Shown piece by piece: positions 1 to 7,643 of a DNA stretch of 7,643 nucleotides (position 1 is the first letter of the stretch; each line of letters begins with the position of its first letter). Origin of the DNA: a virus; IMG/VR virus record IMGVR_UViG_3300008222_000107; one strand, written 5' to 3'. The position numbers were made by a program, and so were the translations under genes. Under the pieces are notes generated by a model. It had not been told where the DNA came from. It saw only the letters and a list, made by a program, of their open reading frames with translations, and made no database searches.

Positions 1-123
1 GGCTTCACGCATTAATTTTGGATAAAGAATAAAACCATCATCATCAAGGATTAATTCTCCAGTATCATCTGTAGAGCCTTCATCAGTTTCAGGAGTGAAT
101 TTTTTTCTTTCTGAAACTGAATA
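1..123. repeat. Terminal redundancy, left copy (identical to 7521-7643)
   Basis: ggcttcacgcattaattttggataaagaat...ttttttctttctgaaactgaata is read identically at both ends of the window. It lies inside an open reading frame, so it reflects circular closure or assembly overlap and is not an LTR or att repeat. Confidence 0.97.
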
Positions 124-501
124 ATTATAATATTTTTCAGGTAAATGATTTTTTATAGAATCTATACCTTCGCTGTCTAAGTCCTCAGGCTTGAAAACTT
201 TGGCATCAGAAGGAAAAACATCTTGTACTTCATCCATGATAATAAAAGCCTTTACAGGCATCCACCAAAACCATCTACGCCATAAAAACAAACCCTTTTC
301 GGTCTGACTAGATAAGCGCCAAATATCAGCAGAATCAGGGAAAACTTCATTTAGTTCAATTTCAATAGATTCTTTCGTTAACATGCCCTCAATATTAGTA
401 ACAACAACACGACCAGCACGAAGCGCTGGGAGCATTTCAAACCAAACTGCACTAGCAGATTTAAAAGAACCTGGTGCACCGTGAAAAATTTTCGCAGCCA
501 T
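1..501 (-). CDS. zot: Zot / gene-I (pI)-like assembly ATPase, N-terminal P-loop half. The gene continues across the circular junction into 7520-6717, for 434 aa in total.
   Basis: Hand translation of the minus strand from ATG 501-499 gives MAAKIFHGAPGSFKSASAVWFEMLPALRAGRVVVTNIEGMLTKESIEIELNEV...AFIIMDEVQDVFP...LYPKLMREA. There is no stop down to base 1. The frame joins the listed ORF 6717-7532, whose MREANMRHRKYNWDII follows directly. Walker A is GAPGSFKS (480-457) and the Walker-B-like motif is FIIMDE. The N-terminus closely resembles V. cholerae Zot as I recall it (HGAPGSYKTSGALW..LLPAIKSGRHIITNVRG). The SD is GAGGA, 10 nt upstream. The start overlaps the upstream stop as TAATG. Confidence 0.9.
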   Translation of the reverse strand, partial: MAAKIFHGAPGSFKSASAVWFEMLPALRAGRVVVTNIEGMLTKESIEIELNEVFPDSADIWRLSSQTEKGLFLWRRWFWWMPVKAFIIMDEVQDVFPSDAKVFKPEDLDSEGIDSIKNHLPEKYYNYSVSERKKFTPETDEGSTDDTGELILDDDGFILYPKLMREA

Positions 502-926
502 TAGAAAATAGTCCTCATAACAAAACGTGTCATATAAGCATTAAGCAATAAATTAAGACCATCAAACAAACGCATATCAACAAAAGCCTGTCTAACATCC
601 TGAGGTAATGCACTAATCTGTGCAGTTATTTGAGACATAATGTTTAAATCAATAATGATTTCTTTACCCACAATCCAAGAAAACTTTAAAGCTTCAAGAT
701 AAGCAAATAATTTTGCTTTTACATACCATTTAACAGCCCAAGACCAAAAGCGATGCCATAAAGTAGGAGTATCATCAAATAAAAACTTCCAAAACAAAGA
801 AATATTGTCAGCAAGCATTTGAGAAGTACCAGCCGCATCTTGATAAGTATCCGCATAAGCAATATACGGAAATAAATAAAACAAAATAAAAAATGAAAAG
901 CTTAAATAAAACCCTTTATTAAACAT
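501..926 (-). CDS. pVI-like hydrophobic minor virion/membrane protein (141 aa)
   Basis: It sits between the pIII-like and Zot-like genes, the gVI/ace position. The protein is very hydrophobic and aromatic-rich (MFNKGFYLSFSFFILFYLFPYIAYA..., WHRFWSWAVKWYVKAKLFAYLEALKFSWIV). TAATG overlaps at both ends (924-928 and 499-503) suggest translational coupling. Function is assigned by position only. Confidence 0.6.
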   Translation of the reverse strand: MFNKGFYLSFSFFILFYLFPYIAYADTYQDAAGTSQMLADNISLFWKFLFDDTPTLWHRFWSWAVKWYVKAKLFAYLEALKFSWIVGKEIIIDLNIMSQITAQISALPQDVRQAFVDMRLFDGLNLLLNAYMTRFVMRTIF

Positions 927-2302
927 TATCTTTTTCCCCCAAGTAACACGAACGCGGCAATTAAAGAACAGATAAGCATGACAGGAGCAGCAAGCAATTT
1001 AAAAAAGTACGAAAAACGACTTAATGACATATCAAAAGTCCCTTTAGTTAAAACAAGGTTTCTTGCTTCATAACCACCAGCCGCAGCGGTAATTGTAAAC
1101 ATTGCACTAGCTTCAGATCTAATCGTTGATATTTCCGCTTTAACATCAGCTTTTAATTGAACAATTTCAGCCTCTAAAGCAGCTGTTTGAGCATCTCCAA
1201 ACATTTCATCGAATTTTGTTCTATCAATAGGTTGTGTTGTTGTTGTATAAGTCATTTTTTCACCAAGTTCACCAATACCATCTTCTAAACCTGACATGTC
1301 AATATTAACTACAGTTGAATTAGTGTCACCGTCACCATCAGAGATAGGATCATCTTTTCCATCACCATCACTATCTAAATCATCCTCATTTTTTATACCA
1401 TCACCATCTATATCTGGATCATCATAATCTGGTAAACCATCACTATCAGTATCAGTATCGTAACAAGCAAAAACATCGTTCACATAACCGCAACCCTCTT
1501 GGCAATTAGTTCCATCAGAATCACAAACATCATCAGGATTAGCAGGACAAGTAAGAAGGTTGCCTGAGGTCGTACATTCACCATCAACAGGTAGTTCTCC
1601 AATTGAACCGTTATCATCTAAAGTCGGATATGTTTCAGAATAGCAATCACCTTCTAAATCCATTTGATAAACAGAGTTTCCACCACCAACATCAACGGCA
1701 TTATATTTACAAACTGAACCGTCAGACTGAGTAAAACAACCGACAGCATCGGTTACTTGAATATTTAAAACAGAATTACCAGAAGCTGAATTACATGAGT
1801 CATTTAAATTTAAATCAGCAGGTTTAGCACAACCAATAACTTTTTGCTCACCATCAACATCACCAAGAACAGGGTAAGTGTGCTCTGGATACTCTGGAAT
1901 ATTAGGACATATACGGGAATCACTCACCTCAACAAAGCTTGCATTAATATCAGTACTTATCGTTTTATCAGTATCATAAGTGCAAGCAAATTGTGGTCGT
2001 TTGTATGTTTCGCTATTGGCATTCCATTGTTGAAAAGTACAACTTTCAATAGCGTAAGAGCCTGACAAGTATGCAATAGCTGCTTCCTCAGCAGCACCAA
2101 TTTGAAAGCCTTCTGCAGAACATGTTGTTGTATTTATACTGTATTTTGAATAAGACCATTCATCACAAACTTCCATATCAGGAGGCTTAAGCTCCGCAAA
2201 ATCTGAGATATCTGCAGATGAAAAAAAAGGCACAAAAAAAGCGACTATAAAAGCCGCCTTTAATGTGAGTTTGCGGCAATAATTAACTGGTTCTAATTGC
2301 AC
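926..2302 (-). CDS. pIII-like receptor-binding / adsorption minor coat protein (about 458 aa from GTG 2302; the track ORF starts at TTG 2344)
   Basis: It is the largest structural ORF and lies directly after the major coat gene. The track start at 2344 is a TTG with no SD. GTG at 2302-2300 is preceded by GAGGG with 8-nt spacing. The GTG start gives the signal peptide M-QLEPVNYCRKLTLKAAFIVAFFVPFFSSA / DISDF. The N-terminal region has 16 Cys between track residues 60 and 294. An Asp-rich repeat linker follows (DTDTDSDGLPDYDDPDIDGDGIKNEDDLDSDGDGKDDPISDGDGD). The C-terminus has a hydrophobic anchor and basic tail (FFKLLAAPVMLICSLIAAFVLLGGKR), as in pIII C-domains. Confidence 0.75.
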   Translation of the reverse strand: MQLEPVNYCRKLTLKAAFIVAFFVPFFSSADISDFAELKPPDMEVCDEWSYSKYSINTTTCSAEGFQIGAAEEAAIAYLSGSYAIESCTFQQWNANSETYKRPQFACTYDTDKTISTDINASFVEVSDSRICPNIPEYPEHTYPVLGDVDGEQKVIGCAKPADLNLNDSCNSASGNSVLNIQVTDAVGCFTQSDGSVCKYNAVDVGGGNSVYQMDLEGDCYSETYPTLDDNGSIGELPVDGECTTSGNLLTCPANPDDVCDSDGTNCQEGCGYVNDVFACYDTDTDSDGLPDYDDPDIDGDGIKNEDDLDSDGDGKDDPISDGDGDTNSTVVNIDMSGLEDGIGELGEKMTYTTTTQPIDRTKFDEMFGDAQTAALEAEIVQLKADVKAEISTIRSEASAMFTITAAAGGYEARNLVLTKGTFDMSLSRFSYFFKLLAAPVMLICSLIAAFVLLGGKR

Positions 2303-2366
2303 TCGAAAAGCCCTCGACAAAACAATATGTAAAAATAGTCGCAAACATCAAAGAAGTAAGCACGAA

Positions 2367-2558
2367 TTAACGACCTAACAACTTGATAACAATGCCAACA
2401 CCAGTAACAACAGCAGCAATAGTTAAAACAACAACAACTGCAGCAGTAGTGTTAGTTGTACCATCAGTGCCAGCGGCAGTAATAGCGGTAGAGTGATCAA
2501 CAGCAAAAGCGCTAACCGATGCAAAACTGGCAGAGCCAAAAGCTAATAAACGTTTCAT
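2367..2558 (-). CDS. Major coat protein (gVIII-like), 63-aa precursor
   Basis: ATG at 2558-2556 is preceded by AAGGGGA with 5-nt spacing. The track's longer ORF begins at a GTG at 2600 that overlaps the upstream stop and lacks an SD. The signal peptide is MKRLLAFGSASFASVSAFA. The mature ~44-aa protein is VDHSTAITAAGTDGTTNTTAAVVVVLTIAAVVTGVGIVIKLLGR. It has an acidic/polar N-terminus, an Ala/Val/Gly-rich helix and a basic C-terminus (K, R), the classic inovirus coat layout. Confidence 0.85.
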   Translation of the reverse strand: MKRLLAFGSASFASVSAFAVDHSTAITAAGTDGTTNTTAAVVVVLTIAAVVTGVGIVIKLLGR

Positions 2559-2599
2559 AATATTCCCCTTAGGAACAAAGTTAAAAAAAAAGTAAAACA

Positions 2600-2989
2600 C
2601 TATGTTTTACCTAAAACGCGAAGCACACGCCCAATGGAGTGACCCGCAATAAATCCGATTAAACAAATCGCATTGAAATAAGCGAAATCTTCACCCGAAA
2701 ATTCAAATAAATCTGTCAAAGTAGCAATAACACCATCTTGATTAATTGCGTCATATTCAGATTTAGAAAGTAGAATCAAGCCAGAAGGGCAAGATTCGAC
2801 TGAAACACTGTCTATTCTCAAATTGCCATTTGTTTCTTCTGATAAACAATAAGAAGCATTAGCATTGAAAATAAAAAAGACCATCACCAAAAAAATAAAA
2901 ACTTTAAAAAATGGAAAAGTTGTTTTTCTAGGTTTAAAAGTAAAATAAACCTCATCAATGACTTTTTTATTTTGTTGGTGACTGGTCAT
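2600..2989 (-). CDS. Hypothetical membrane protein (129 aa) with an N-terminal signal/TM segment and a C-terminal TM plus basic tail; possible minor coat or assembly protein
   Basis: ATG at 2989 lies 5 nt after the stop of the upstream gene. The N-terminal hydrophobic segment FPFFKVFIFLVMVFFIFNANA is followed by a soluble ~60-aa domain. The C-terminus is FAYFNAICLIGFIAGHSIGRVLRVLGKT. It occupies the gVII/gIX position, between the gV-position gene and the coat gene. I recognise no sequence family. Confidence 0.5.
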   Translation of the reverse strand: MTSHQQNKKVIDEVYFTFKPRKTTFPFFKVFIFLVMVFFIFNANASYCLSEETNGNLRIDSVSVESCPSGLILLSKSEYDAINQDGVIATLTDLFEFSGEDFAYFNAICLIGFIAGHSIGRVLRVLGKT

Positions 2990-2994
2990 AAAAA

Positions 2995-3297
2995 CTAAGA
3001 TGCCTTAGGCAAATCAAAACCGACAATTTTCATTGTCATAATGCCTTTTTTTACTGCAGTTTCTACTTCACACAATATTGAAGATGGAACTACACCAGTA
3101 GAAGCAAGTTTTTTAGATAATGCGTTTTCATTATTTGTGCAGATTGTAACTTTAGCTTGTTGTTGACCAACATCGATGCGATCAGCTTCAATTGTATTAG
3201 CAATAGAGTTATCTAAAATAAAAGCATTGGCATATAGCATTCCATTATCTTCGATTTTTCCCGCTGATATGCGCAGAATTTCTAGTGGAATTTTCAT
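2995..3297 (-). CDS. Hypothetical 100-aa protein in the gV position; candidate ssDNA-binding protein
   Basis: It is the first gene downstream of the strong minus-strand promoter at 3354-3382. SD AAGG lies 10 nt upstream of ATG 3297. The protein is small and soluble with no TM segment, and it lies immediately upstream of the coat module. Function is inferred from size and position only. I see no recognisable similarity to Ff gVp. Confidence 0.55.
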   Translation of the reverse strand: MKIPLEILRISAGKIEDNGMLYANAFILDNSIANTIEADRIDVGQQQAKVTICTNNENALSKKLASTGVVPSSILCEVETAVKKGIMTMKIVGFDLPKAS

Positions 3298-3452: not shown

Positions 3453-3644
3453 ATGTCAAAAACAAAAACGGTAAGAATGAAACATGAGGATGCTTTCATT
3501 GTAGAACAAGCAGCAAGAGAGCTTGCAGCTGAGTTACAACAGGAAGTTATAGTTAGTCAATTATTAAGGGAATTAATGAAAGATGTACCAAAAGCAAAAG
3601 AAAGACTTAAAAACAAACTTATTAAACTTAGCGAAAAAAAATAA
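3453..3644 (+). CDS. Small 63-aa putative transcriptional regulator, ribbon-helix-helix (CopG/Arc/MetJ)-like pattern
   Basis: It is the only plus-strand gene. It is divergent from the structural operon and convergent with rep. MSKTKTVRMKHEDAFIVEQAARELAAELQQEVIVSQLLRELMKDV fits a short beta strand (TVRM), helix, turn, helix, followed by a Lys-rich tail. Its own terminator follows. The SD is weak. The fold is assigned by pattern only. Confidence 0.55.
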   Translation: MSKTKTVRMKHEDAFIVEQAARELAAELQQEVIVSQLLRELMKDVPKAKERLKNKLIKLSEKK

Positions 3645-3660: not shown

Positions 3661-3712
3661 TTAAAAAAAAGATTACAAAATTAATTTGTAAAGGGGTGAT
3701 TTAATCACCTCT
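3661..3712 (-). terminator. Candidate terminator for rep (the convergent, bidirectional partner)
   Basis: On the minus strand the 3712-3692 hairpin is followed by a second hairpin: TTACAAA (3691-3685), loop TTAAT, TTTGTAA (3679-3673). Then comes TC plus a T8 run (3670-3663). The second stem is AT-only, so its strength is uncertain. Confidence 0.4.
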
Positions 3713-3723
3713 TTTATTTTTAT
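3692..3723 (+). terminator. Rho-independent terminator for the regulator gene
   Basis: AGGGGTGA (3692-3699), loop TTTAA, TCACCTCT (3705-3712). This is an 8-bp stem with one G-U pair on the plus-strand transcript, followed by TTTATTTTTAT. The rep stop codon (3703-3701) sits in the loop. Confidence 0.6.
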
Positions 3724-5278
3724 AATCATAAATTGCCCTATCAAAAACATTCATATTAATACGAGTAAAATCACCAGTGATTAAATGATTTTTATGTTCA
3801 TTTTTAATTTTACTTTTATATGGATTTGAGAGAGATTTGTTTTCAGTGCTGATCCAGTTATCAGTATTAATTTGTAAATCTTCTGAAACTGTATTTCTAT
3901 TTGAAAAATTATCATAATATTCTTCAAAACTATCATATTCATTGTTAAATAATAATTGAGCGATAGCTTTAGAACCACCATTTTCGGCAAGCTGACAAAC
4001 AACAGAACGAAGTTTGTTTTTTAAAATAAATTCCCATTCTTCAGGGGTTATGTAACATAGAAAATCGGCTTTATCTTCCTCTTGAGATATTATATCTTCA
4101 TCAGAAGAATCTTTACCAAGTTCAAAAAATGCCCTTAAACCTTTTGACCATTTAATTAACGTAGTGCCAACAAAAGCACGAGCATAATGCAAAAATAAAA
4201 TTTTATTTTTTTGTCTTTCTTCTTTATCTTCTAATTCAATTGAATTGCTCAATAAATCCCAAGGAGATGAAGATTTTTTACGCCCTGTTTTTGTATTGCC
4301 TTTTGTCATTTCGTCTGCCATATCCCAAGTGACTTTTTTACCTGTTTTAGTTTCTAAAAATTCATCATCTGAGCCAAATTTAGTAATATATTCCCCTGCT
4401 TTTTCACCGTTTGAAATATCAAAACCATACTCATTAGGACAATTAAGACCAGAACGGACAACCATAGTTTTCCATCGATTAAATAACCATAAATAATCAA
4501 AATTATCCTGTTTGGTTGGTATTTTAATTTTACTAAAAATAATAATATGGAAATGAGGATGCCAACCATTAGAACCATGGCGAACTTCAAAAGATCTAAT
4601 ATTACCGACAACACCAAACCTATTTTTGAATTTGCGCATAGGAGCACCAGCCCAAAACTTAGCGTTGGAAAAAGAAATTTTTTCTTTTAATTCGTCCAGC
4701 ATATCTCCAGCATTATGAGGAGCTGTTAAGGTAATCATTGAAATTTTTAATTTTTGTGCTTTGGCAATGTTGAAAGCGACACGCATTTCATTCGATTTTC
4801 TTTCAGTAATTTTAGCTGAGCAAACAGGACAAGTACGAGAATTTGCACAAGTTAAAAGACCACTAAAAAAAGCTTTCCCATTGGTTTTAGATTTAACAAT
4901 GTCAACGGTTTGAGATTTTCGAAATTTTGTACAAGTGCAAGTTCTATGATGAACATCATAGCCTTTTGCATTAACGGGAACATTTGAACCATGAAAACCA
5001 TACAGGATATTAGCAGCAGCATCTTGTAATTTATAACGAGTTTCTCTAGCTAAATTTACAGCATCTTTTTGATTGATAGCCCCATGTATAAGGCTTTCCC
5101 CTGTTGAAAAATCAACATATTCATTTTTTTTTCTAGTGTATTTTTCAGGGGGGGTACATAACTCCGTAGCATTACCGAGAGCGCTACTCGCTTTTCCTCG
5201 TTGCTCAGGCTTCGCCCTCGTCAACGCTCGCACGCGCTTCAAAGGTTGAAAAGAGGATTTTTGTTGATTATACTTCAT
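3701..5278 (-). CDS. Rolling-circle replication initiator (HUH endonuclease), pC194/Rep_1-like motif set, 525 aa
   Basis: Motif 1 is ISMITLTAPHN (the FLTLT type). Motif 2 (HUH) is WHPHFHIIIF, with H-P-H-F-H at 4561-4547, checked by hand. Motif 3 is GEYITKFGS, with candidate catalytic Tyr297 at 4390-4388. An upstream Cys cluster, LLTCANSRTCPVCSAKITERK, resembles the C..RFCP.C motif of pC194-family Reps. A long C-terminal extension follows. Confidence 0.85.
   Translation of the reverse strand: MKYNQQKSSFQPLKRVRALTRAKPEQRGKASSALGNATELCTPPEKYTRKKNEYVDFSTGESLIHGAINQKDAVNLARETRYKLQDAAANILYGFHGSNVPVNAKGYDVHHRTCTCTKFRKSQTVDIVKSKTNGKAFFSGLLTCANSRTCPVCSAKITERKSNEMRVAFNIAKAQKLKISMITLTAPHNAGDMLDELKEKISFSNAKFWAGAPMRKFKNRFGVVGNIRSFEVRHGSNGWHPHFHIIIFSKIKIPTKQDNFDYLWLFNRWKTMVVRSGLNCPNEYGFDISNGEKAGEYITKFGSDDEFLETKTGKKVTWDMADEMTKGNTKTGRKKSSSPWDLLSNSIELEDKEERQKNKILFLHYARAFVGTTLIKWSKGLRAFFELGKDSSDEDIISQEEDKADFLCYITPEEWEFILKNKLRSVVCQLAENGGSKAIAQLLFNNEYDSFEEYYDNFSNRNTVSEDLQINTDNWISTENKSLSNPYKSKIKNEHKNHLITGDFTRINMNVFDRAIYDYKNKRGD
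5246..5274 (+). promoter_or_regulatory. Candidate plus-strand promoter inside the 5' end of rep, firing antisense across the rep leader
   Basis: TTGAAA (5246-5251), a 17-nt spacer AGAGGATTTTTGTTGAT, then TATACT (5269-5274). Both hexamers match 5 of 6 at optimal spacing. The predicted start near 5281 lies just beyond the rep ATG (5278-5276). Confidence 0.5.
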
Positions 5279-5280
5279 TT

Positions 5281-5366
5281 GTCTAGCTCGCAGTCGTTGT
5301 CGTGATGATTAAAGCAAAAAGACATAAGGGTTGAATGTTTTGGCGAACGTTCAACCCGTTTTTTTG
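5281..5366 (+). ncRNA. Candidate ~85-nt antisense RNA (countertranscript) complementary to the orf91-rep intergenic leader, including the rep ribosome-binding region
   Basis: It is bounded by the promoter at 5246-5274 and the intrinsic terminator at 5328-5365 on the same strand. No plus-strand ORF lies in the interval. The ends are predicted, not measured. Confidence 0.4.
5328..5366 (+). terminator. Textbook rho-independent terminator on the plus strand
   Basis: GGGTTGAATGTT (5328-5339), loop TTGGCG, AACGTTCAACCC (5346-5357). This is a 12-bp stem with one G-U pair on the plus-strand RNA, followed by G plus T7 (5359-5365). On the minus strand the same stem has an A-C mismatch and the T-run lies 7 nt away. 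It therefore reads best as a plus-strand terminator. Confidence 0.65.
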
Positions 5367-5410
5367 CTTAAAATATAATAATCTAAATATTCATACTAAA
5401 CCAGAAGTTA

Positions 5411-5686
5411 TCACTTAGCGGCACTTTCAAAAGTTAATTCAACAAATTCACCAGAACTTAAAGGCAAAGCGTTAAATAGAGAATTCATTGAAGAAAAGGA
5501 ACGTAAAGAATTTTTCTGAGTAACTAAATTATATACTGACAATTCAGAACGAACTGAAAGCTCAACAAAAAAAACATCTGAATCATGGTTGTAACAAACA
5601 ACTAATTTAGAATCATCACAATCAAAATATTTAGAAATAAACTCATTTAATTGCAGGGTTTTTCTTTCGATTTTAGAGTAAGACAT
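5411..5686 (-). CDS. Hypothetical 91-aa protein, first gene of the putative orf91-rep operon
   Basis: ATG at 5686 has SD AGGAA with 7-nt spacing, and a good promoter lies upstream. The protein is soluble with no TM segment. I recognise no family. Confidence 0.6.
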   Translation of the reverse strand: MSYSKIERKTLQLNEFISKYFDCDDSKLVVCYNHDSDVFFVELSVRSELSVYNLVTQKNSLRSFSSMNSLFNALPLSSGEFVELTFESAAK

Positions 5687-5717: not shown

Positions 5718-5745
5718 AATATACCATATTAAATTAATTTTGCAA
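5718..5745 (-). promoter_or_regulatory. Sigma70-type promoter for orf91 (and probably rep)
   Basis: The minus strand reads TTGCAA (5745-5740), a 16-nt spacer, then TATATT (5723-5718), preceded by TGG (extended -10-like). The -35 overlaps the left arm of the 5742-5781 palindrome. Confidence 0.55.
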
Positions 5746-5781
5746 GTTTAATTTAAAAGTTTTATTTTAAATTAAACTTGC
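5742..5781. repeat. Perfect 17-bp inverted repeat with 6-nt spacer (40-bp palindromic element)
   Basis: GCAAGTTTAATTTAAAA (5742-5758), gtttta, TTTTAAATTAAACTTGC (5765-5781). It begins 11 nt after the stop of the 250-aa gene and overlaps the orf91 promoter -35. No adjacent T-run is present on either strand. Confidence 0.9.
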
Positions 5782-5792
5782 TGATATAATTA

Positions 5793-6545
5793 TTACTTAG
5801 TCATATCCTTTAAAAAAGTCTCGCCTTGTTGAAGTTCGCCATTATTATCATAATAACTAAGTACCCATAAATCATCGTCTGCAGGGTTTCCACTATTGGA
5901 AAAAGTTGTTTGATATTCAACGATTGCACAACCAGTAAAACCACCACCAACGCAAGCTTCTATCGCACTTGTAGACCAATCATCAAATTCATCAATAACA
6001 TCAGGCAAAGCAGGGATAACAATAGGAACAGCAGGATCGTCACCATCGCAAGGATCGCAATCATCACTTCCACATTCTTCTGCATTTTCACAACCAAAAG
6101 AACTTATAGGGTAATCATTTACCAATCCAATTTGAAAAAAATTGGTGGCTTGCTCCCTCACTTCATCAGCATTTCCAGAAATTAAAGTCGCTTTGATCCT
6201 AAAGTCATTACGATTTTTAACAGGTTTCATAATATAAATCTCATGACCTGATTCAGTGCGCGATTTAATAACTTTCATTACTGATATTTTTGACTCGAAA
6301 ACTAGATAATCATTAGCCTCTTTGGCTTTTTCTTCTGCCGTTTTAGCTAGTAAATAACGAAGTTTATATCTACCGACTGCAGTTTCATAAGTGGCACGTA
6401 ATTCAGGGTCGTCAATAATCTTTTGTAATAACCCAGAAACTACATCATCTTTTGAAGTAGTTAGTTTTAATTTCCCTGCAAAAGCATTTGTAGTAAAAAC
6501 CAAAACCAATGTAATAAGTAAGACATGTACAATTTTCATTTTCAT
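5793..6545 (-). CDS. Secreted accessory protein of unknown function (250 aa) with a Cys/Asp-rich C-terminal half
   Basis: The signal peptide is MKMKIVHVLLITLVLVFTTNAFA / GKLKL, with an AFA-G cleavage site and no lipobox Cys. The second ATG at 6539 has better SD spacing (AGGAA + 6 nt) than the first at 6545. The N-terminal half is charged and helical-looking. Then come CENAEECGSDDCDPCDGDDPAVPIVIPALPDVIDEFDDW and ...ACVGGGFTGCAIV, giving 6 Cys. I recognise no family. It lies between the zot-like gene and the replication module. Confidence 0.75.
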   Translation of the reverse strand: MKMKIVHVLLITLVLVFTTNAFAGKLKLTTSKDDVVSGLLQKIIDDPELRATYETAVGRYKLRYLLAKTAEEKAKEANDYLVFESKISVMKVIKSRTESGHEIYIMKPVKNRNDFRIKATLISGNADEVREQATNFFQIGLVNDYPISSFGCENAEECGSDDCDPCDGDDPAVPIVIPALPDVIDEFDDWSTSAIEACVGGGFTGCAIVEYQTTFSNSGNPADDDLWVLSYYDNNGELQQGETFLKDMTK

Positions 6546-6641
6546 TTCCTTTTTAGTAAAAATATAAGTCCTTTTAGACTTACGTGTGTAAATTGGCTAG
6601 CAACAAAATTTTGTTAAATTGCGCCAAAATATAAATAGAAC

Positions 6642-6688
6642 ATTACCGGCCCAGGCACAAAACAAAAAACTGTGCTTGGGCTGGTAAT
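6642..6688 (-). terminator. Long hairpin after zot: candidate operon terminator and/or packaging-signal/origin hairpin
   Basis: ATTACCGGCCCAGGCACA (6642-6659), an 11-nt A-rich loop, TGTGCTTGGGCTGGTAAT (6671-6688). This is an 18-bp stem with two non-Watson-Crick positions, G-T on the plus strand and A-C on the minus strand. It starts 29 nt after the zot stop. The minus-strand trailer TGTTCTATTTATATTTT is T-rich but is not a clean T-run. Confidence 0.45.
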
Positions 6689-6716
6689 AACCTAACTTAA
6701 ATTTCTGTCACTATCT

Positions 6717-7643
6717 CTAAGTTGAATTAGAAACATCACTACCTTGTGGTCGTTGTTTTTCTATCTTTCTTGGTGGGCAATAAGCATATCTGAAGTTATC
6801 TTCTTTAAATATTTTTGCAGAACATTCATTAACAAAACGAACAACAAAACCCATTTGTTTTAGGTTATCACCACTTAAATAATACTTTTCAGTGCCTTTT
6901 ATAAGTGTAAAAAGATATTCCCTTTGACGGTTATTTTTGTTTTTAATATCAACATAGCCATTGAAATATATTTCATTGGCTCGATATGGCAAATCTACAG
7001 AAATAGGGCTTTCATTACTATTCTGAATAGCGTTAGTAATATTAGAAATATTAGGACTTTTAGTAGTGGCTTCGCTAGATAGTGAAATATTTTTACCAAC
7101 ACTTTCTTCAATCCTTTCAGCAGCTGTTGCTTTATCTTCTTTAATAAAGAGCCACCATGTCGCATAACTGAAACAAAGAAATAATAGGGCGATAGTAAAA
7201 ATAAGTGTAGGATCTTTAAACGCGTTAAGTGCTCCAGCTTTTGTTGTTTTTCCCGTGCTTGTACTTCTATAACATTTGTGTACTTCGACTGGCACTCTTC
7301 GCCATTTAACCTGTTCACCTTTTTTAGCGGTGACACCTGTTGATTTTGGGCTATGTTCATTTATTCGTGGTCTCCGCTTAAAGTAAGGTATAAATTCAAG
7401 AGATTCATTGTATTTATGGAAGTAAGCAAATTCACAAACAGAGCGAACTAGTTTATGAATTTCAGATATTTCAGGGGTACAGTAAATGATATCCCAATTG
7501 TATTTACGGTGACGCATATTGGCTTCACGCATTAATTTTGGATAAAGAATAAAACCATCATCATCAAGGATTAATTCTCCAGTATCATCTGTAGAGCCTT
7601 CATCAGTTTCAGGAGTGAATTTTTTTCTTTCTGAAACTGAATA
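6717..7643 (-). CDS. zot: Zot / gene-I (pI)-like assembly protein, C-terminal part. It covers residues 127-434 of the 434-aa protein, and its 5' continuation is 1-501 through the circular junction.
   Basis: The frame is open from the right edge of the window to the stop at 6717. The listed ORF (6717-7532) begins only at an internal Met. MRHRKYNWDIIYCTPEISEIHKLVRSVCEFAYFH matches the Zot core as I recall it (HRHHGWDICLTTPNIAKVHNMIREAAEIGYRH). A single TM segment (LIFTIALLFLCFSYATWWLFI) is followed by a ~140-aa C-terminal domain, the pI/Zot topology. Confidence 0.9.
   Translation of the reverse strand, partial: YSVSERKKFTPETDEGSTDDTGELILDDDGFILYPKLMREANMRHRKYNWDIIYCTPEISEIHKLVRSVCEFAYFHKYNESLEFIPYFKRRPRINEHSPKSTGVTAKKGEQVKWRRVPVEVHKCYRSTSTGKTTKAGALNAFKDPTLIFTIALLFLCFSYATWWLFIKEDKATAAERIEESVGKNISLSSEATTKSPNISNITNAIQNSNESPISVDLPYRANEIYFNGYVDIKNKNNRQREYLFTLIKGTEKYYLSGDNLKQMGFVVRFVNECSAKIFKEDNFRYAYCPPRKIEKQRPQGSDVSNST
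7521..7643. repeat. Terminal redundancy, right copy (identical to 1-123)
   Basis: Base-for-base identity with 1-123; 7521 corresponds to base 1. Confidence 0.97.

What the first reader, a model, noticed from the sequence alone, without database searches (positions are those of the whole stretch)
5793..6545. Secreted Cys/Asp-rich cargo protein at the position where CTXphi carries ctxAB
The gene lies after the zot-like gene and its hairpin, and before the replication module. It is not part of the canonical inovirus core. It has its own SD and a clear Sec signal peptide. The mature protein has a charged N-terminal half. The C-terminal half carries CENAEECGSDDCDPCDGDD plus a Pro-rich segment and two more Cys. 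In CTXphi the cargo toxin genes occupy this post-zot slot. Such slots in inoviruses commonly hold moron genes affecting the host phenotype. The candidate could be a superinfection-exclusion factor, a receptor or pilus binder, a host-interaction factor or a toxin. I cannot assign any family.
Basis: inference. Interest (0 to 1): 0.65.

Follow-up and report, generated by a model that had tools for sequence, protein, structure and literature searches.

The report
Orphan exported cargo gene in inovirus
A small filamentous phage, probably of the marine bacterium Colwellia, carries one extra gene after its assembly gene; the gene encodes an exported protein with a single known relative and no assignable function, which is the usual kind of passenger gene at this spot.

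Summary
A 250-codon ORF on the minus strand (6545..5793; the likelier start is ATG 6539, giving 248 aa) encodes a protein with a textbook Sec signal peptide (cleavage after AFA, residue 23). Its N-terminal half has balanced charge. A Cys/Asp-rich, Pro-rich linker follows, then an acidic C-terminal module with two more Cys.

The gene is real. An ORF this long is not expected by chance (about 5e-5). Its codon usage matches the phage core genes (r = 0.91). A full-length homologue, P0002 (33% identity), keeps four of the Cys.

The window is a complete circular inovirus of 7520 nt with a 123-nt terminal repeat. The gene lies between zot/pI and the Rep gene, the variable interval of this clade. No homologue was found in any of about 23 related zot-bearing phage and Colwellia/Alteromonadaceae prophage loci. 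Two of these carry other exported proteins in the same interval. This matches the hypervariable region described after zot in Vibrio CTX-type inoviruses.

No family, fold or function could be assigned:
- Pfam, PHROGs, NCBIfam, PADLOC and PDB gave nothing.
- Both AlphaFold models were unusable (pLDDT about 41).
- A weak SPOR-domain lead failed targeted tests.

My best guess is an accessory binding protein acting in the cell envelope. The finding is ordinary in kind and orphan in sequence.

The parts
5793..6545 (-). ORF250 coding sequence. The likelier start is ATG 6539 (248 aa); the stop is TAA at 5795-5793.
6477..6545 (-). Sec (type I) signal peptide, residues 1-23, with predicted cleavage AFA|GK.
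   Evidence: Read directly from the sequence; hydropathy. The AFAGK site is conserved in homologue P0002.
6547..6551 (-). Shine-Dalgarno AAGGA, 7 nt upstream of ATG 6539.
6561..6590 (-). Sigma-70-like promoter match (TACACA-18-TATATT). It is weak, and the region holds no more such matches than chance predicts.
6625..6705 (-). Long imperfect hairpin between the zot stop and ORF250. It could be a terminator, packaging signal or origin; its role is undetermined.
   Evidence: z = -6.7 as RNA, -4.4 as DNA
6036..6092 (-). Codons for the Cys/Asp-rich segment CENAEECGSDDCDPCDGDD (residues 152-170). The Pro-rich linker follows it.
   Evidence: C163 and C166 are conserved in P0002.
5796..5993 (-). Codons for the acidic C-terminal module (residues 185-250) with conserved D.FD.W...A.E.C.GGG.T.C and Y.D..GE.Q.G.T motifs.
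5732..5791 (.). AT-rich inverted repeat (27-nt arms, 85% complementary) directly after the ORF250 stop. It overlaps a promoter-like site for ORF91.
5411..5686 (-). ORF91, a second orphan small ORF in the same variable interval, lying upstream of Rep.
5311..5381 (.). Hairpin region upstream of Rep (stem 5328-5357). It is conserved with relative L011 (83% over 72 nt) and marks the Rep-side edge of the variable interval.
5198..5217 (-). Conserved 20-mer GGGCGAAGCCTGAGCAACGA, shared exactly with related phages and Colwellia prophages. In most relatives it lies right after zot.
6717..7643 (-). C-terminal part of zot/pI. The gene starts at window 501 and runs across the circular junction (434 aa in total).

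Best explanation
ORF250 is a genuine accessory ('moron' or hypervariable-region) gene of a circular 7.5-kb inovirus whose hosts are probably Colwellia.

**Shown**
- It lies in the zot-to-Rep interval, the variable part of this phage clade.
- It is absent from every relative examined.
- It has the codon usage of the phage core genes.
- It has one full-length homologue elsewhere.

**Read from the sequence**
- It has a Sec type-I signal peptide and no other membrane segment, lipobox or beta-barrel terminus.
- The 25-kDa acidic product should therefore be released as a soluble protein into the periplasm, and possibly beyond.
- Four conserved Cys (CxxC plus Cx7C) probably form disulfides there.

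**Inferred**
- Inovirus virion proteins are membrane-anchored before assembly, and this protein has no anchor. The relatives also do without it. It is therefore not a structural or assembly protein.
- No His or other catalytic-type residue set is conserved between the two family members. This favours a binding protein over an enzyme.

**Most likely role.** It acts in the envelope of the chronically infected cell, binding or masking a receptor or co-receptor, or otherwise changing the cell surface. That would protect the carrier cell from further phage infection or alter its surface behaviour.

**Probabilities**
- Accessory exported cargo: about 0.8.
- Envelope-acting binding protein: about 0.5.
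- Superinfection exclusion specifically: about 0.3.
For: **Real gene**
- Chance expectation for an ORF this long is 5e-5; codon-usage r = 0.91 against core genes, versus 0.20 for the +1 frame.
- Homologue P0002 is 260 aa and scores E = 1e-20 in an exhaustive search of 1.8 billion representatives. It aligns end to end at 33% identity. The signal-peptide cleavage site, 4 Cys and the GGG motif are conserved.

**Inovirus context**
- Rep_1, DUF2523/pVI-like, Zot and major coat hits.
- A 123-nt terminal repeat shows the genome is circular.

**Accessory status**
- No homologue in 11 related IMG/VR loci.
- No homologue in 34 loci from genome contigs that share the phage's 20-mer, about 12 of which also carry zot.
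- The zot-to-core gap is 24-139 nt in 11 relatives and 0.6-2.8 kb in 7; it is 1.5 kb here.
- The closest Rep relative, L011, carries unrelated 112-aa and 93-aa ORFs in the slot.

**Exported cargo recurs in this slot**
- L042 carries a PEP-CTERM protein (22 bits against a cut-off of 20.7).
- L006 carries a 465-aa FIMAH/LDL-B-like protein with a signal anchor.

**Known precedent**
- Hypervariable regions between zot and xafT in Vibrio CTX-I inoviruses carry defence genes and, in several V. mimicus inoviruses, the exotoxin TDH (PMC12715192).
- 2 of 10 inovirus hypothetical proteins tested gave superinfection exclusion (PMC6813254).

**Export features**.
Against: - No experiment or transcript data show expression or export. 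SignalP was not available.
- No family, domain or fold was found: Pfam, PHROGs, NCBIfam and PADLOC, PDB by sequence, AlphaFold at pLDDT 40-41, and Foldseek with no hit at E <= 0.001. The proposed role therefore rests on position, export signal and precedent only.
- No similarity to this clade's pIII-like receptor-binding proteins, which a decoy model might predict.
- The 'no catalytic residues' argument rests on only two sequences.
- The only homologue sits on contigs of 0.9 kb with no context. It is unknown whether the family is phage-specific.
- The gene's codon usage fits the phage perfectly. That is also what a long-resident gene with a phage-specific role would show.
Confidence: 0.55

Rival explanations
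1. It is a secreted toxin or effector aimed at other organisms, the functional equivalent of ctxAB or TDH. It would be exported by Sec and then passed across the outer membrane by a host secretion system.
For: - It occupies the same genomic slot as ctxAB in CTXphi (established knowledge) and as TDH in the hypervariable regions of several V. mimicus inoviruses (PMC12715192).
- It has a signal peptide and disulfide-type Cys.
Against: - No hit to any toxin family in Pfam or NCBIfam.
- The STS string at residues 191-193 that might recall ADP-ribosyltransferases is not conserved in P0002.
- There is no partner B-subunit gene. The neighbour, ORF91, has no signal peptide.
- The hosts are free-living marine psychrophiles, which lowers the prior for a host-directed toxin.
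Confidence: 0.1
2. It is a phage-specific egress or envelope-remodelling helper. It would be a periplasmic protein that binds peptidoglycan (SPOR-like) or a host secretin to assist filament extrusion. It would stand where Ff phages encode the signal-peptide-bearing secretin pIV, directly after gene I.
For: - The position directly after pI/zot matches that of gene IV in Ff (established knowledge).
- An exhaustive phmmer search gave E = 7.7e-4 to P0003, a protein with two SPOR domains. The alignment covers residues 82-164 at 27% identity.
- Codon usage is fully phage-like.
Against: - All relatives lack the protein, and no secretin gene appears in the listed ORFs of the relatives either.
- At 250 aa it is too short for a secretin, and there is no Secretin hit.
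- The SPOR lead fails targeted tests. The Pfam SPOR model gives no hit even at E <= 10. An HMM built from E. coli FtsN, DamX, DedD and RlpA SPOR domains scores the P0003 repeats at 18.6 and 13.3 bits, but ORF250 and P0002 at -1.4. That is no better than shuffles (821 of 2000 do as well). hhalign gives a probability of 0.16%.
- The P0003 score is inflated by two near-identical repeats. Rescaling the single-HSP BLAST E-value (1e-7 pairwise) to the size of the library gives about 50 by my arithmetic.
- P0002 itself shows no similarity to P0003.
Confidence: 0.12
3. It is a virion component, for example an extra tip or adsorption protein.
For: - It has a signal peptide like pIII and pVIII.
- Its acidic Asp-rich, Cys-containing linker is reminiscent of the Asp-rich repeats in this phage's own pIII-like protein.
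Against: - There is no C-terminal or internal membrane anchor. All inovirus coat proteins need one before assembly (established knowledge).
- It is absent from all relatives, which keep pIII, pVI and pVIII.
- It shows no similarity to any pIII of the clade.
Confidence: 0.03
4. It is not a functional gene: a chance ORF or a decaying remnant.
For: There is only one homologue among about 15 billion proteins, and no expression data exist.
Against: - Chance expectation is 5e-5, and it has the best codon-usage match of all genes in the genome.
- Full-length conservation with P0002 holds across very different GC contents (35% against 47%). Conserved Cys, Gly and aromatic residues remain.
- A well-placed Shine-Dalgarno site is present.
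Confidence: 0.02

Closest known systems
Phage-encoded hypervariable regions (pHVRs) between zot and xafT in Vibrio CTX-I inoviruses (PMC12715192)
   Same: - A variable insert lies directly downstream of zot and ahead of the lysogeny/replication genes.
- Sizes are similar: 1.5 kb here against 1.9 +/- 1.3 kb there.
- Presence and absence vary among close relatives.
- The content is exchanged horizontally.
   Different: - The host clade differs (Colwellia/Alteromonadaceae), and Zot is only about 32% identical to Vibrio phage Zot.
- No xafT (DUF3653) was recognised here.
- The content is an exported orphan protein, not a recognisable defence system (PADLOC negative).
ctxAB of CTXphi
   Same: Both are non-core genes downstream of zot that encode Sec-exported, disulfide-containing proteins (established knowledge; position confirmed).
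   Different: ORF250 has no sequence similarity, no A/B gene pair, and no ADP-ribosyltransferase or enterotoxin-B domain. The resemblance is positional only.
Post-zot ORFs of f237-type Vibrio parahaemolyticus phages (ORF8 region; for example vB_Vipa36)
   Same: These are strain-specific hypothetical ORFs between zot and the ORF9/ORF10 regulators.
   Different: No similarity was found. tblastn of ORF250 against 50,697 phage records gave no match.
Exported cargo of sister Colwellia (pro)phages: the L042 PEP-CTERM protein and the L006 FIMAH/LDL-B-like protein
   Same: They occupy the same interval in the same phage clade and carry signal peptides. This suggests a recurrent theme of cell-surface cargo.
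   Different: The sequences and domains are unrelated. The L006 gene is on the opposite strand. ORF250 has no PEP-CTERM sorting signal.
Gene IV (secretin pIV) of Ff phages
   Same: It is the gene immediately after gene I and encodes a signal-peptide-bearing envelope protein (established knowledge).
   Different: ORF250 is about 250 aa against about 426 aa for pIV. It has no Secretin domain and is absent from relatives.
SPOR peptidoglycan-binding domain (PF05036)
   Same: One SPOR protein, P0003, aligns to residues 82-164 at 27% identity over a full domain length.
   Different: ORF250 fails the Pfam model, an independent SPOR HMM and hhalign. It is not filed as a member.

Membership tests
Inovirus post-zot hypervariable-region cargo (moron) | Located between zot/pI and the replication/lysogeny module. 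| tested here: met
   The order is zot stop 6717, hairpin, ORF250, ORF91, then Rep start 5278.
Inovirus post-zot hypervariable-region cargo (moron) | Present or absent among related phages that share the core genes. | tested here: met
   - No homologue in 11 IMG/VR relatives or about 12 zot-bearing Colwellia/Alteromonadaceae prophage loci.
- The slot length varies from 24 nt to 2.8 kb.
Inovirus post-zot hypervariable-region cargo (moron) | Not homologous to any core inovirus protein. | tested here: met
   PHROGs and Pfam gave no hit. There is no similarity to the pIII, pVI, pVIII, pI or Rep proteins of the clade.
Inovirus post-zot hypervariable-region cargo (moron) | Own transcription signals (promoter and terminator). 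| tested here: inconclusive
   - One weak sigma-70-like site lies at 6590..6561, but the count equals the shuffle expectation.
- A strong hairpin lies upstream and an AT-rich inverted repeat lies downstream.
Sec-exported protein (type I signal peptide) | Positive n-region, hydrophobic h-region of 10-15 residues, and A-x-A at -3/-1. | tested here: met
   The sequence is MKMK-IVHVLLITLVLVFTT-NAFA|G. The site is conserved in P0002. No SignalP run was possible.
Sec-exported protein (type I signal peptide) | Actual export and cleavage in the host. | not testable with these tools
   This needs PhoA or Bla fusions, or fractionation.
Bacterial lipoprotein | Lipobox L-[AS]-[GA]-C at the cleavage site. 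| tested here: not met
   There is no Cys before residue 152.
Cholera-toxin-type AB5 toxin (ctxAB) | ADP-ribosyltransferase A subunit plus a pentameric B-subunit gene. | tested here: not met
   There are no Pfam or NCBIfam toxin hits. It is a single gene, and the neighbour ORF91 has no signal peptide.
SPOR domain (PF05036) | Match to a SPOR family profile. | tested here: not met
   - The Pfam model gives no hit at E <= 10.
- A four-sequence E. coli SPOR HMM scores -1.4 bits, equal to shuffles, while the positive controls score 13-19 bits.
- hhalign gives a probability of 0.16%.
SPOR domain (PF05036) | beta-alpha-beta-beta-alpha-beta fold that binds denuded glycan. | tested here: inconclusive
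   The AlphaFold models have pLDDT of 40-41 and Foldseek results are meaningless. Binding cannot be tested here.
Secretin pIV (PF00263) | C-terminal Secretin domain and a length above 400 aa. | tested here: not met
   The protein is 250 aa with no Secretin hit.
Inovirus coat or adsorption protein | A membrane anchor that holds the protein in the inner membrane before assembly. | tested here: not met
   No hydrophobic segment follows the signal peptide; the maximum 19-residue Kyte-Doolittle value is 1.18.
Known anti-phage defence systems (PADLOC) | Match to a defence protein model. | tested here: not met
   No hit at E <= 1.

The most novel reading that the evidence does not exclude
ORF250 and P0002 may found a new family of phage-borne, disulfide-stabilised periplasmic proteins with a new fold. 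In this reading they act as soluble receptor or co-receptor blockers, for example against a pilus or Tol component used by Colwellia inoviruses. That would be an envelope-level superinfection-exclusion mechanism not yet described for filamentous phages of marine psychrophiles. Alternatively, they are a new exported effector. Nothing found here excludes either reading, and nothing found here specifically supports either.
Probability: 0.25. Interest if true: 0.55.

Novelty: new member of a known kind. Interest (0 to 1): 0.3.

Why it matters
Filamentous phages change their hosts mostly through the few passenger genes they carry after the assembly genes. Cholera toxin is the classic example. This work shows that the same hot spot exists in a barely studied clade of Colwellia-type inoviruses from cold marine environments. 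There it repeatedly holds exported, cell-surface-directed proteins.

ORF250 is one such passenger. It belongs to a two-member orphan family, so it offers a clean candidate for testing what surface or immunity trait these phages give their hosts. Without a fold or phenotype it remains a catalogue entry, not a discovery.

Tried and rejected
**1. SPOR-domain lead.** The only non-family hit in the exhaustive search was P0003 (E = 7.7e-4), which carries two SPOR domains. I rejected it as unsupported for these reasons:
- The score is doubled by two near-identical repeats.
- The Pfam SPOR model is silent.
- An independent HMM from E. coli FtsN, DamX, DedD and RlpA recognises P0003 but not ORF250 or P0002.
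- hhalign gives a probability of 0.16%.
- P0002 does not match P0003.

**2. Structure prediction.** A single-sequence model and a two-sequence-alignment model both reached pLDDT of about 41. Foldseek against PDB and BFVD gave nothing at E <= 0.001.

**3. Further homologue searches.**
- A word-indexed search with ORF250 and with P0002 returned only the queries themselves.
- A third search with the SPOR segment of P0003 found no candidates and was wasted.
- Three IMG/VR scans, one metagenome scan and one genome scan gave nothing real. The single metagenome hit, L015, is a ComEA-like protein that shares only the signal peptide.
- Phage and plasmid tblastn searches gave no match.

**4. Weak Pfam hit.** Me-amine-dh_L (E = 0.04-0.06 against a cut-off of 25 bits) was dismissed as Cys-driven noise. 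The transferrin hits in PDB (E > 0.6) were dismissed in the same way.

**5. ORF91 as a homologue of the small pre-Rep ORFs of L004, L005 and L008.** The alignment was suggestive, but the HMM score of 0.2 bits is no better than shuffles.

**6. Decoy derived from pIII.** No similarity to any pIII of the clade was found.

**7. Recent import from a compositionally different donor.** Rejected, because GC, GC3 and codon usage equal those of the core genes.

**8. Rfam families in the flanking hairpins.** None were found.
Full report
**What the window is**

The 7643-nt window has identical 123-nt ends, so it is a circular genome of 7520 nt cut inside a gene. A second metagenome contig, L001, is 100% identical over 4.5 kb. 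All core genes lie on the minus strand:
- Rep (5278..3701; Pfam Rep_1, phrog_11698).
- A g5-position protein (3297..2995).
- A conserved 129-aa protein (phrog_969).
- The major coat protein (2600..2367).
- A 472-aa pIII-like protein (2344..926).
- A pVI-like protein (926..501; DUF2523).
- Zot/pI (434 aa), running from 501 across the junction to 6717.

A 63-aa ORF on the plus strand (3453..3644) lies divergent from the Rep/g5 region. The genome is 33% GC. No cultured phage is close. Megablast found nothing, and the best Zot matches are Vibrio phages VCY-phi and f237-like vB_Vipa36 at about 32% identity.

**Checking the observation**

The ORF at 6545..5793 (minus strand, 250 aa) is as described. 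The AAGGA Shine-Dalgarno at 6551-6547 sits 1 nt from the first ATG and 7 nt from the second (6539). The real start is therefore probably 6539, and the public gene call is indeed 248 aa.

The N-terminus, MKMK-IVHVLLITLVLVFTT-NAFA|GK, fits the n/h/c layout and the -3/-1 rule of a signal peptidase I substrate. No other hydrophobic segment exists, and there is no Cys before residue 152, so the protein is neither a lipoprotein nor an anchored membrane protein.

The mature protein is 25 kDa with pI 4.4. Its segments are:
- Residues 24-150: rich in both K/R and D/E, net +3.
- Residues 151-185: net -11, with 4 Cys and 5 Pro.
- Residues 186-250: net -10, with 2 Cys.

An open frame of 250 codons is expected about 5e-5 times in this AT-rich sequence. 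The gene's codon usage correlates with the core genes at r = 0.91, the highest of any gene in the genome, against 0.20 for its +1 frame.

Upstream lies an 81-nt imperfect hairpin (6705-6625; -32.2 kcal/mol as RNA, z = -6.7). A sigma-70-like site lies at 6590..6561, but such sites are no more frequent here than in shuffles. An own promoter is therefore not established.

**Relatives of the protein**

Pfam, PHROGs, NCBIfam and PADLOC give no family. PDB sequence searches with the protein and with a profile give only noise.

The word-indexed search of 5.8 billion clusters returned only the protein itself. The exhaustive phmmer search of 1.84 billion representatives returned two other proteins.

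- **P0002** (260 aa, E = 1.3e-20) is a true homologue. It aligns from the signal peptide to the C-terminus at 33% identity. It conserves the AFAGK cleavage site, a helix-like Y..YL.AK..EE.AK.A..Y..FE stretch and a G..IY...P stretch. It also conserves four Cys (CxxC and Cx7C), D.FD.W, a GGG motif and Y.D..GE.Q.G.T. It is known only from two contigs of 0.9 kb at 47% GC, with no usable context. No His is conserved, and there is no obvious catalytic set.
- **P0003** (E = 7.7e-4) has two SPOR domains. It aligns to residues 82-164 of ORF250.

I treated the SPOR hit as a lead and tested it:
- The two repeats of P0003 are nearly identical, which doubles the score.
- The Pfam SPOR model does not see ORF250 or P0002 even at E <= 10.
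- An HMM built from the SPOR domains of E. coli FtsN, DamX, DedD and RlpA scores the P0003 repeats at 18.6 and 13.3 bits. It scores ORF250 and P0002 at -1.4 bits, no better than shuffled sequences.
- hhalign gives 0.16% probability.
- P0002 does not resemble P0003.

The SPOR reading is therefore not supported.

AlphaFold2 on the single sequence and on the two-sequence alignment gave pLDDT of 40.5 and 41.5. Foldseek on that model found nothing at E <= 0.001 in PDB or BFVD.

**Is it core or cargo?**

Eleven IMG/VR contigs encode Zot proteins 53-68% identical to this one. They share its pVI, pVIII, 129-aa protein and the C-terminal part of pIII. None has a homologue of ORF250 or of ORF91.

The closest Rep relative, L011, is circular with a 127-nt terminal repeat. 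It has the same gene order, but between zot and Rep it carries unrelated 112-aa and 93-aa ORFs. Nucleotide similarity with L011 stops inside zot and resumes at the hairpin just upstream of Rep (window about 5381-5311).

A 20-mer, GGGCGAAGCCTGAGCAACGA (window 5217..5198), is exact in six of the eleven relatives. It also occurs in 34 stretches of genome contigs. Thirty-two of these are from Colwellia, Cognaticolwellia, Pseudocolwellia or Alteromonadaceae, and two look like chance matches. This points to Colwellia-type hosts.

About 12 of the genome loci also encode Zot homologues. None encodes an ORF250 relative by tblastn or by a profile of the two family members.

In 18 loci where both the zot end and the 20-mer are present, the gap between them is 24-139 nt in 11 and 608-2812 nt in 7. 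In the window it is 1500 nt. The inserts mostly hold small opposite-strand ORFs. Two hold exported proteins:
- L042 carries a 211-aa PEP-CTERM protein.
- L006 carries a 465-aa protein with a signal anchor, a FIMAH domain and LDL-receptor-B-like repeats.

ORF250 is thus a passenger in the variable interval of this clade.

**Comparison with what is known**

A 2025 survey of Vibrio inoviruses describes hypervariable regions of 1.9 +/- 1.3 kb between zot and xafT in CTX-I phages. These regions are hot spots of exchange. They carry defence systems and, in several V. mimicus inoviruses, the exotoxin TDH (PMC12715192).

The f237-like phage vB_Vipa36 likewise has several hypothetical ORFs after zot. 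In CTXphi itself, ctxAB follows zot (established knowledge). In a functional screen, 2 of 10 inovirus hypothetical proteins caused superinfection exclusion (PMC6813254).

The present gene belongs to this known kind by position and variability. It shares no sequence or domain with any named member.

**Mechanism**

The following is shown or read from the sequence:
- It is a real, well-adapted gene.
- It is absent from all relatives examined.
- It carries a Sec signal and no membrane anchor.
- It has four conserved Cys in a protein bound for an oxidising compartment.
- Its C-terminal half is acidic.

The following is inferred. The protein is a soluble periplasmic, or further secreted, two-module protein that the phage does not need to build virions. 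It more likely binds something than catalyses something.

The role I consider most likely is action on the envelope of the chronically infected cell. This could be masking of a receptor or co-receptor, which would give superinfection exclusion, or another change of the cell surface. The recurrence of surface-directed cargo in sister phages points the same way. I put about 0.8 on 'accessory exported cargo' and about 0.3 on superinfection exclusion specifically.

The rivals are a secreted toxin or effector (0.1), a phage-specific egress or peptidoglycan-binding helper (0.12), a virion protein (0.03) and a non-functional ORF (0.02).

**Verdict**

The gene is a new orphan member of a known kind of feature, cargo after zot in inoviruses. 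Interest is modest. It would rise only if a fold or phenotype were found.

Noticed in passing
window 1-123 and 7521-7643: The two ends are an identical 123-nt direct repeat. The window is therefore a complete circular genome of 7520 nt, and zot/pI (434 aa) runs across the window ends, from 501 down to 1 and then from 7520 down to 6717.
   Followed up: yes
window 5198-5217 (minus strand), inside the first 30 codons of the Rep ORF: The 20-mer GGGCGAAGCCTGAGCAACGA is exact in 6 of 11 related phage contigs and in 32 Colwellia/Alteromonadaceae genome stretches. It usually lies 24-139 nt after zot. It is often embraced by variable inverted repeats, and L030 has three tandem copies. It is conserved across phages with different Rep types. 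An attachment site, an origin or a packaging signal are all possible.
   Followed up: partly
window 6625-6705: An 81-nt imperfect hairpin lies between the zot stop and ORF250 (z = -6.7 as RNA). Two positions in the stem are A-C mismatches on the coding strand. On the complementary strand those positions read as G-T wobble pairs (by inspection). Its function is undetermined.
   Followed up: partly
window 5311-5381: A GC-rich hairpin (stem 5328-5357, followed by a T-run on the plus strand) lies just upstream of Rep. It is 83% conserved with relative L011 although the flanking cargo differs.
   Followed up: partly
window 5411-5686 (minus strand): ORF91 is a second orphan ORF in the variable interval. 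It has its own AGGA-type ribosome-binding site and a TG-extended promoter-like site (5745..5718). It matches no family and has no homologue in relatives. An apparent likeness to the small pre-Rep ORFs of L004, L005 and L008 was not significant.
   Followed up: yes
window 926-2344 (minus strand): The pIII-like protein has a long Asp-rich stretch (DTDTDSDGLPDYDDPDIDGDGIKNEDDLDSDGDGKDDPISDGDGD). It looks like thrombospondin-type-3 calcium-binding repeats and sits where Ff pIII has Gly-rich linkers. Only its C-terminal roughly 100 residues are well conserved among relatives.
   Followed up: no
L006 6788-8185 (minus strand) and 9474-11414: A related prophage carries a 465-aa exported protein after zot (FIMAH domain, LDL-receptor-B-like repeats, Asp-rich Cys motif). 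Beyond the conserved 20-mer it carries a PLD-like/KilAC protein and an AbiGi-like protein, which suggests a defence island next to the phage.
   Followed up: partly
L042, reverse-complement coordinates about 1044-1679: A Colwellia psychrerythraea prophage carries a 211-aa PEP-CTERM protein with a signal peptide in the same post-zot interval, on the same strand as zot.
   Followed up: partly
window 3453-3644 (plus strand): This 63-aa ORF is the only one on the opposite strand. It is conserved in L011 (61% identity) and L009 (53%) at the same place next to Rep. It is a likely repressor-type regulator but matches no family.
   Followed up: no
L015 2592-2849: A ComEA-like helix-hairpin-helix protein from a gammaproteobacterial metagenome contig shares only the signal peptide (…LSTNAFAGK) with ORF250. 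This produced a false 'relative' in the metagenome scan.
   Followed up: yes
post-zot regions of L002, L008, L009, L011 and L012: A short motif of the form TTTTAGTACCAAA / TTTTGGTACCA recurs, sometimes as inverted copies, in the non-coding DNA after zot of several relatives. I did not search for it in the window.
   Followed up: no
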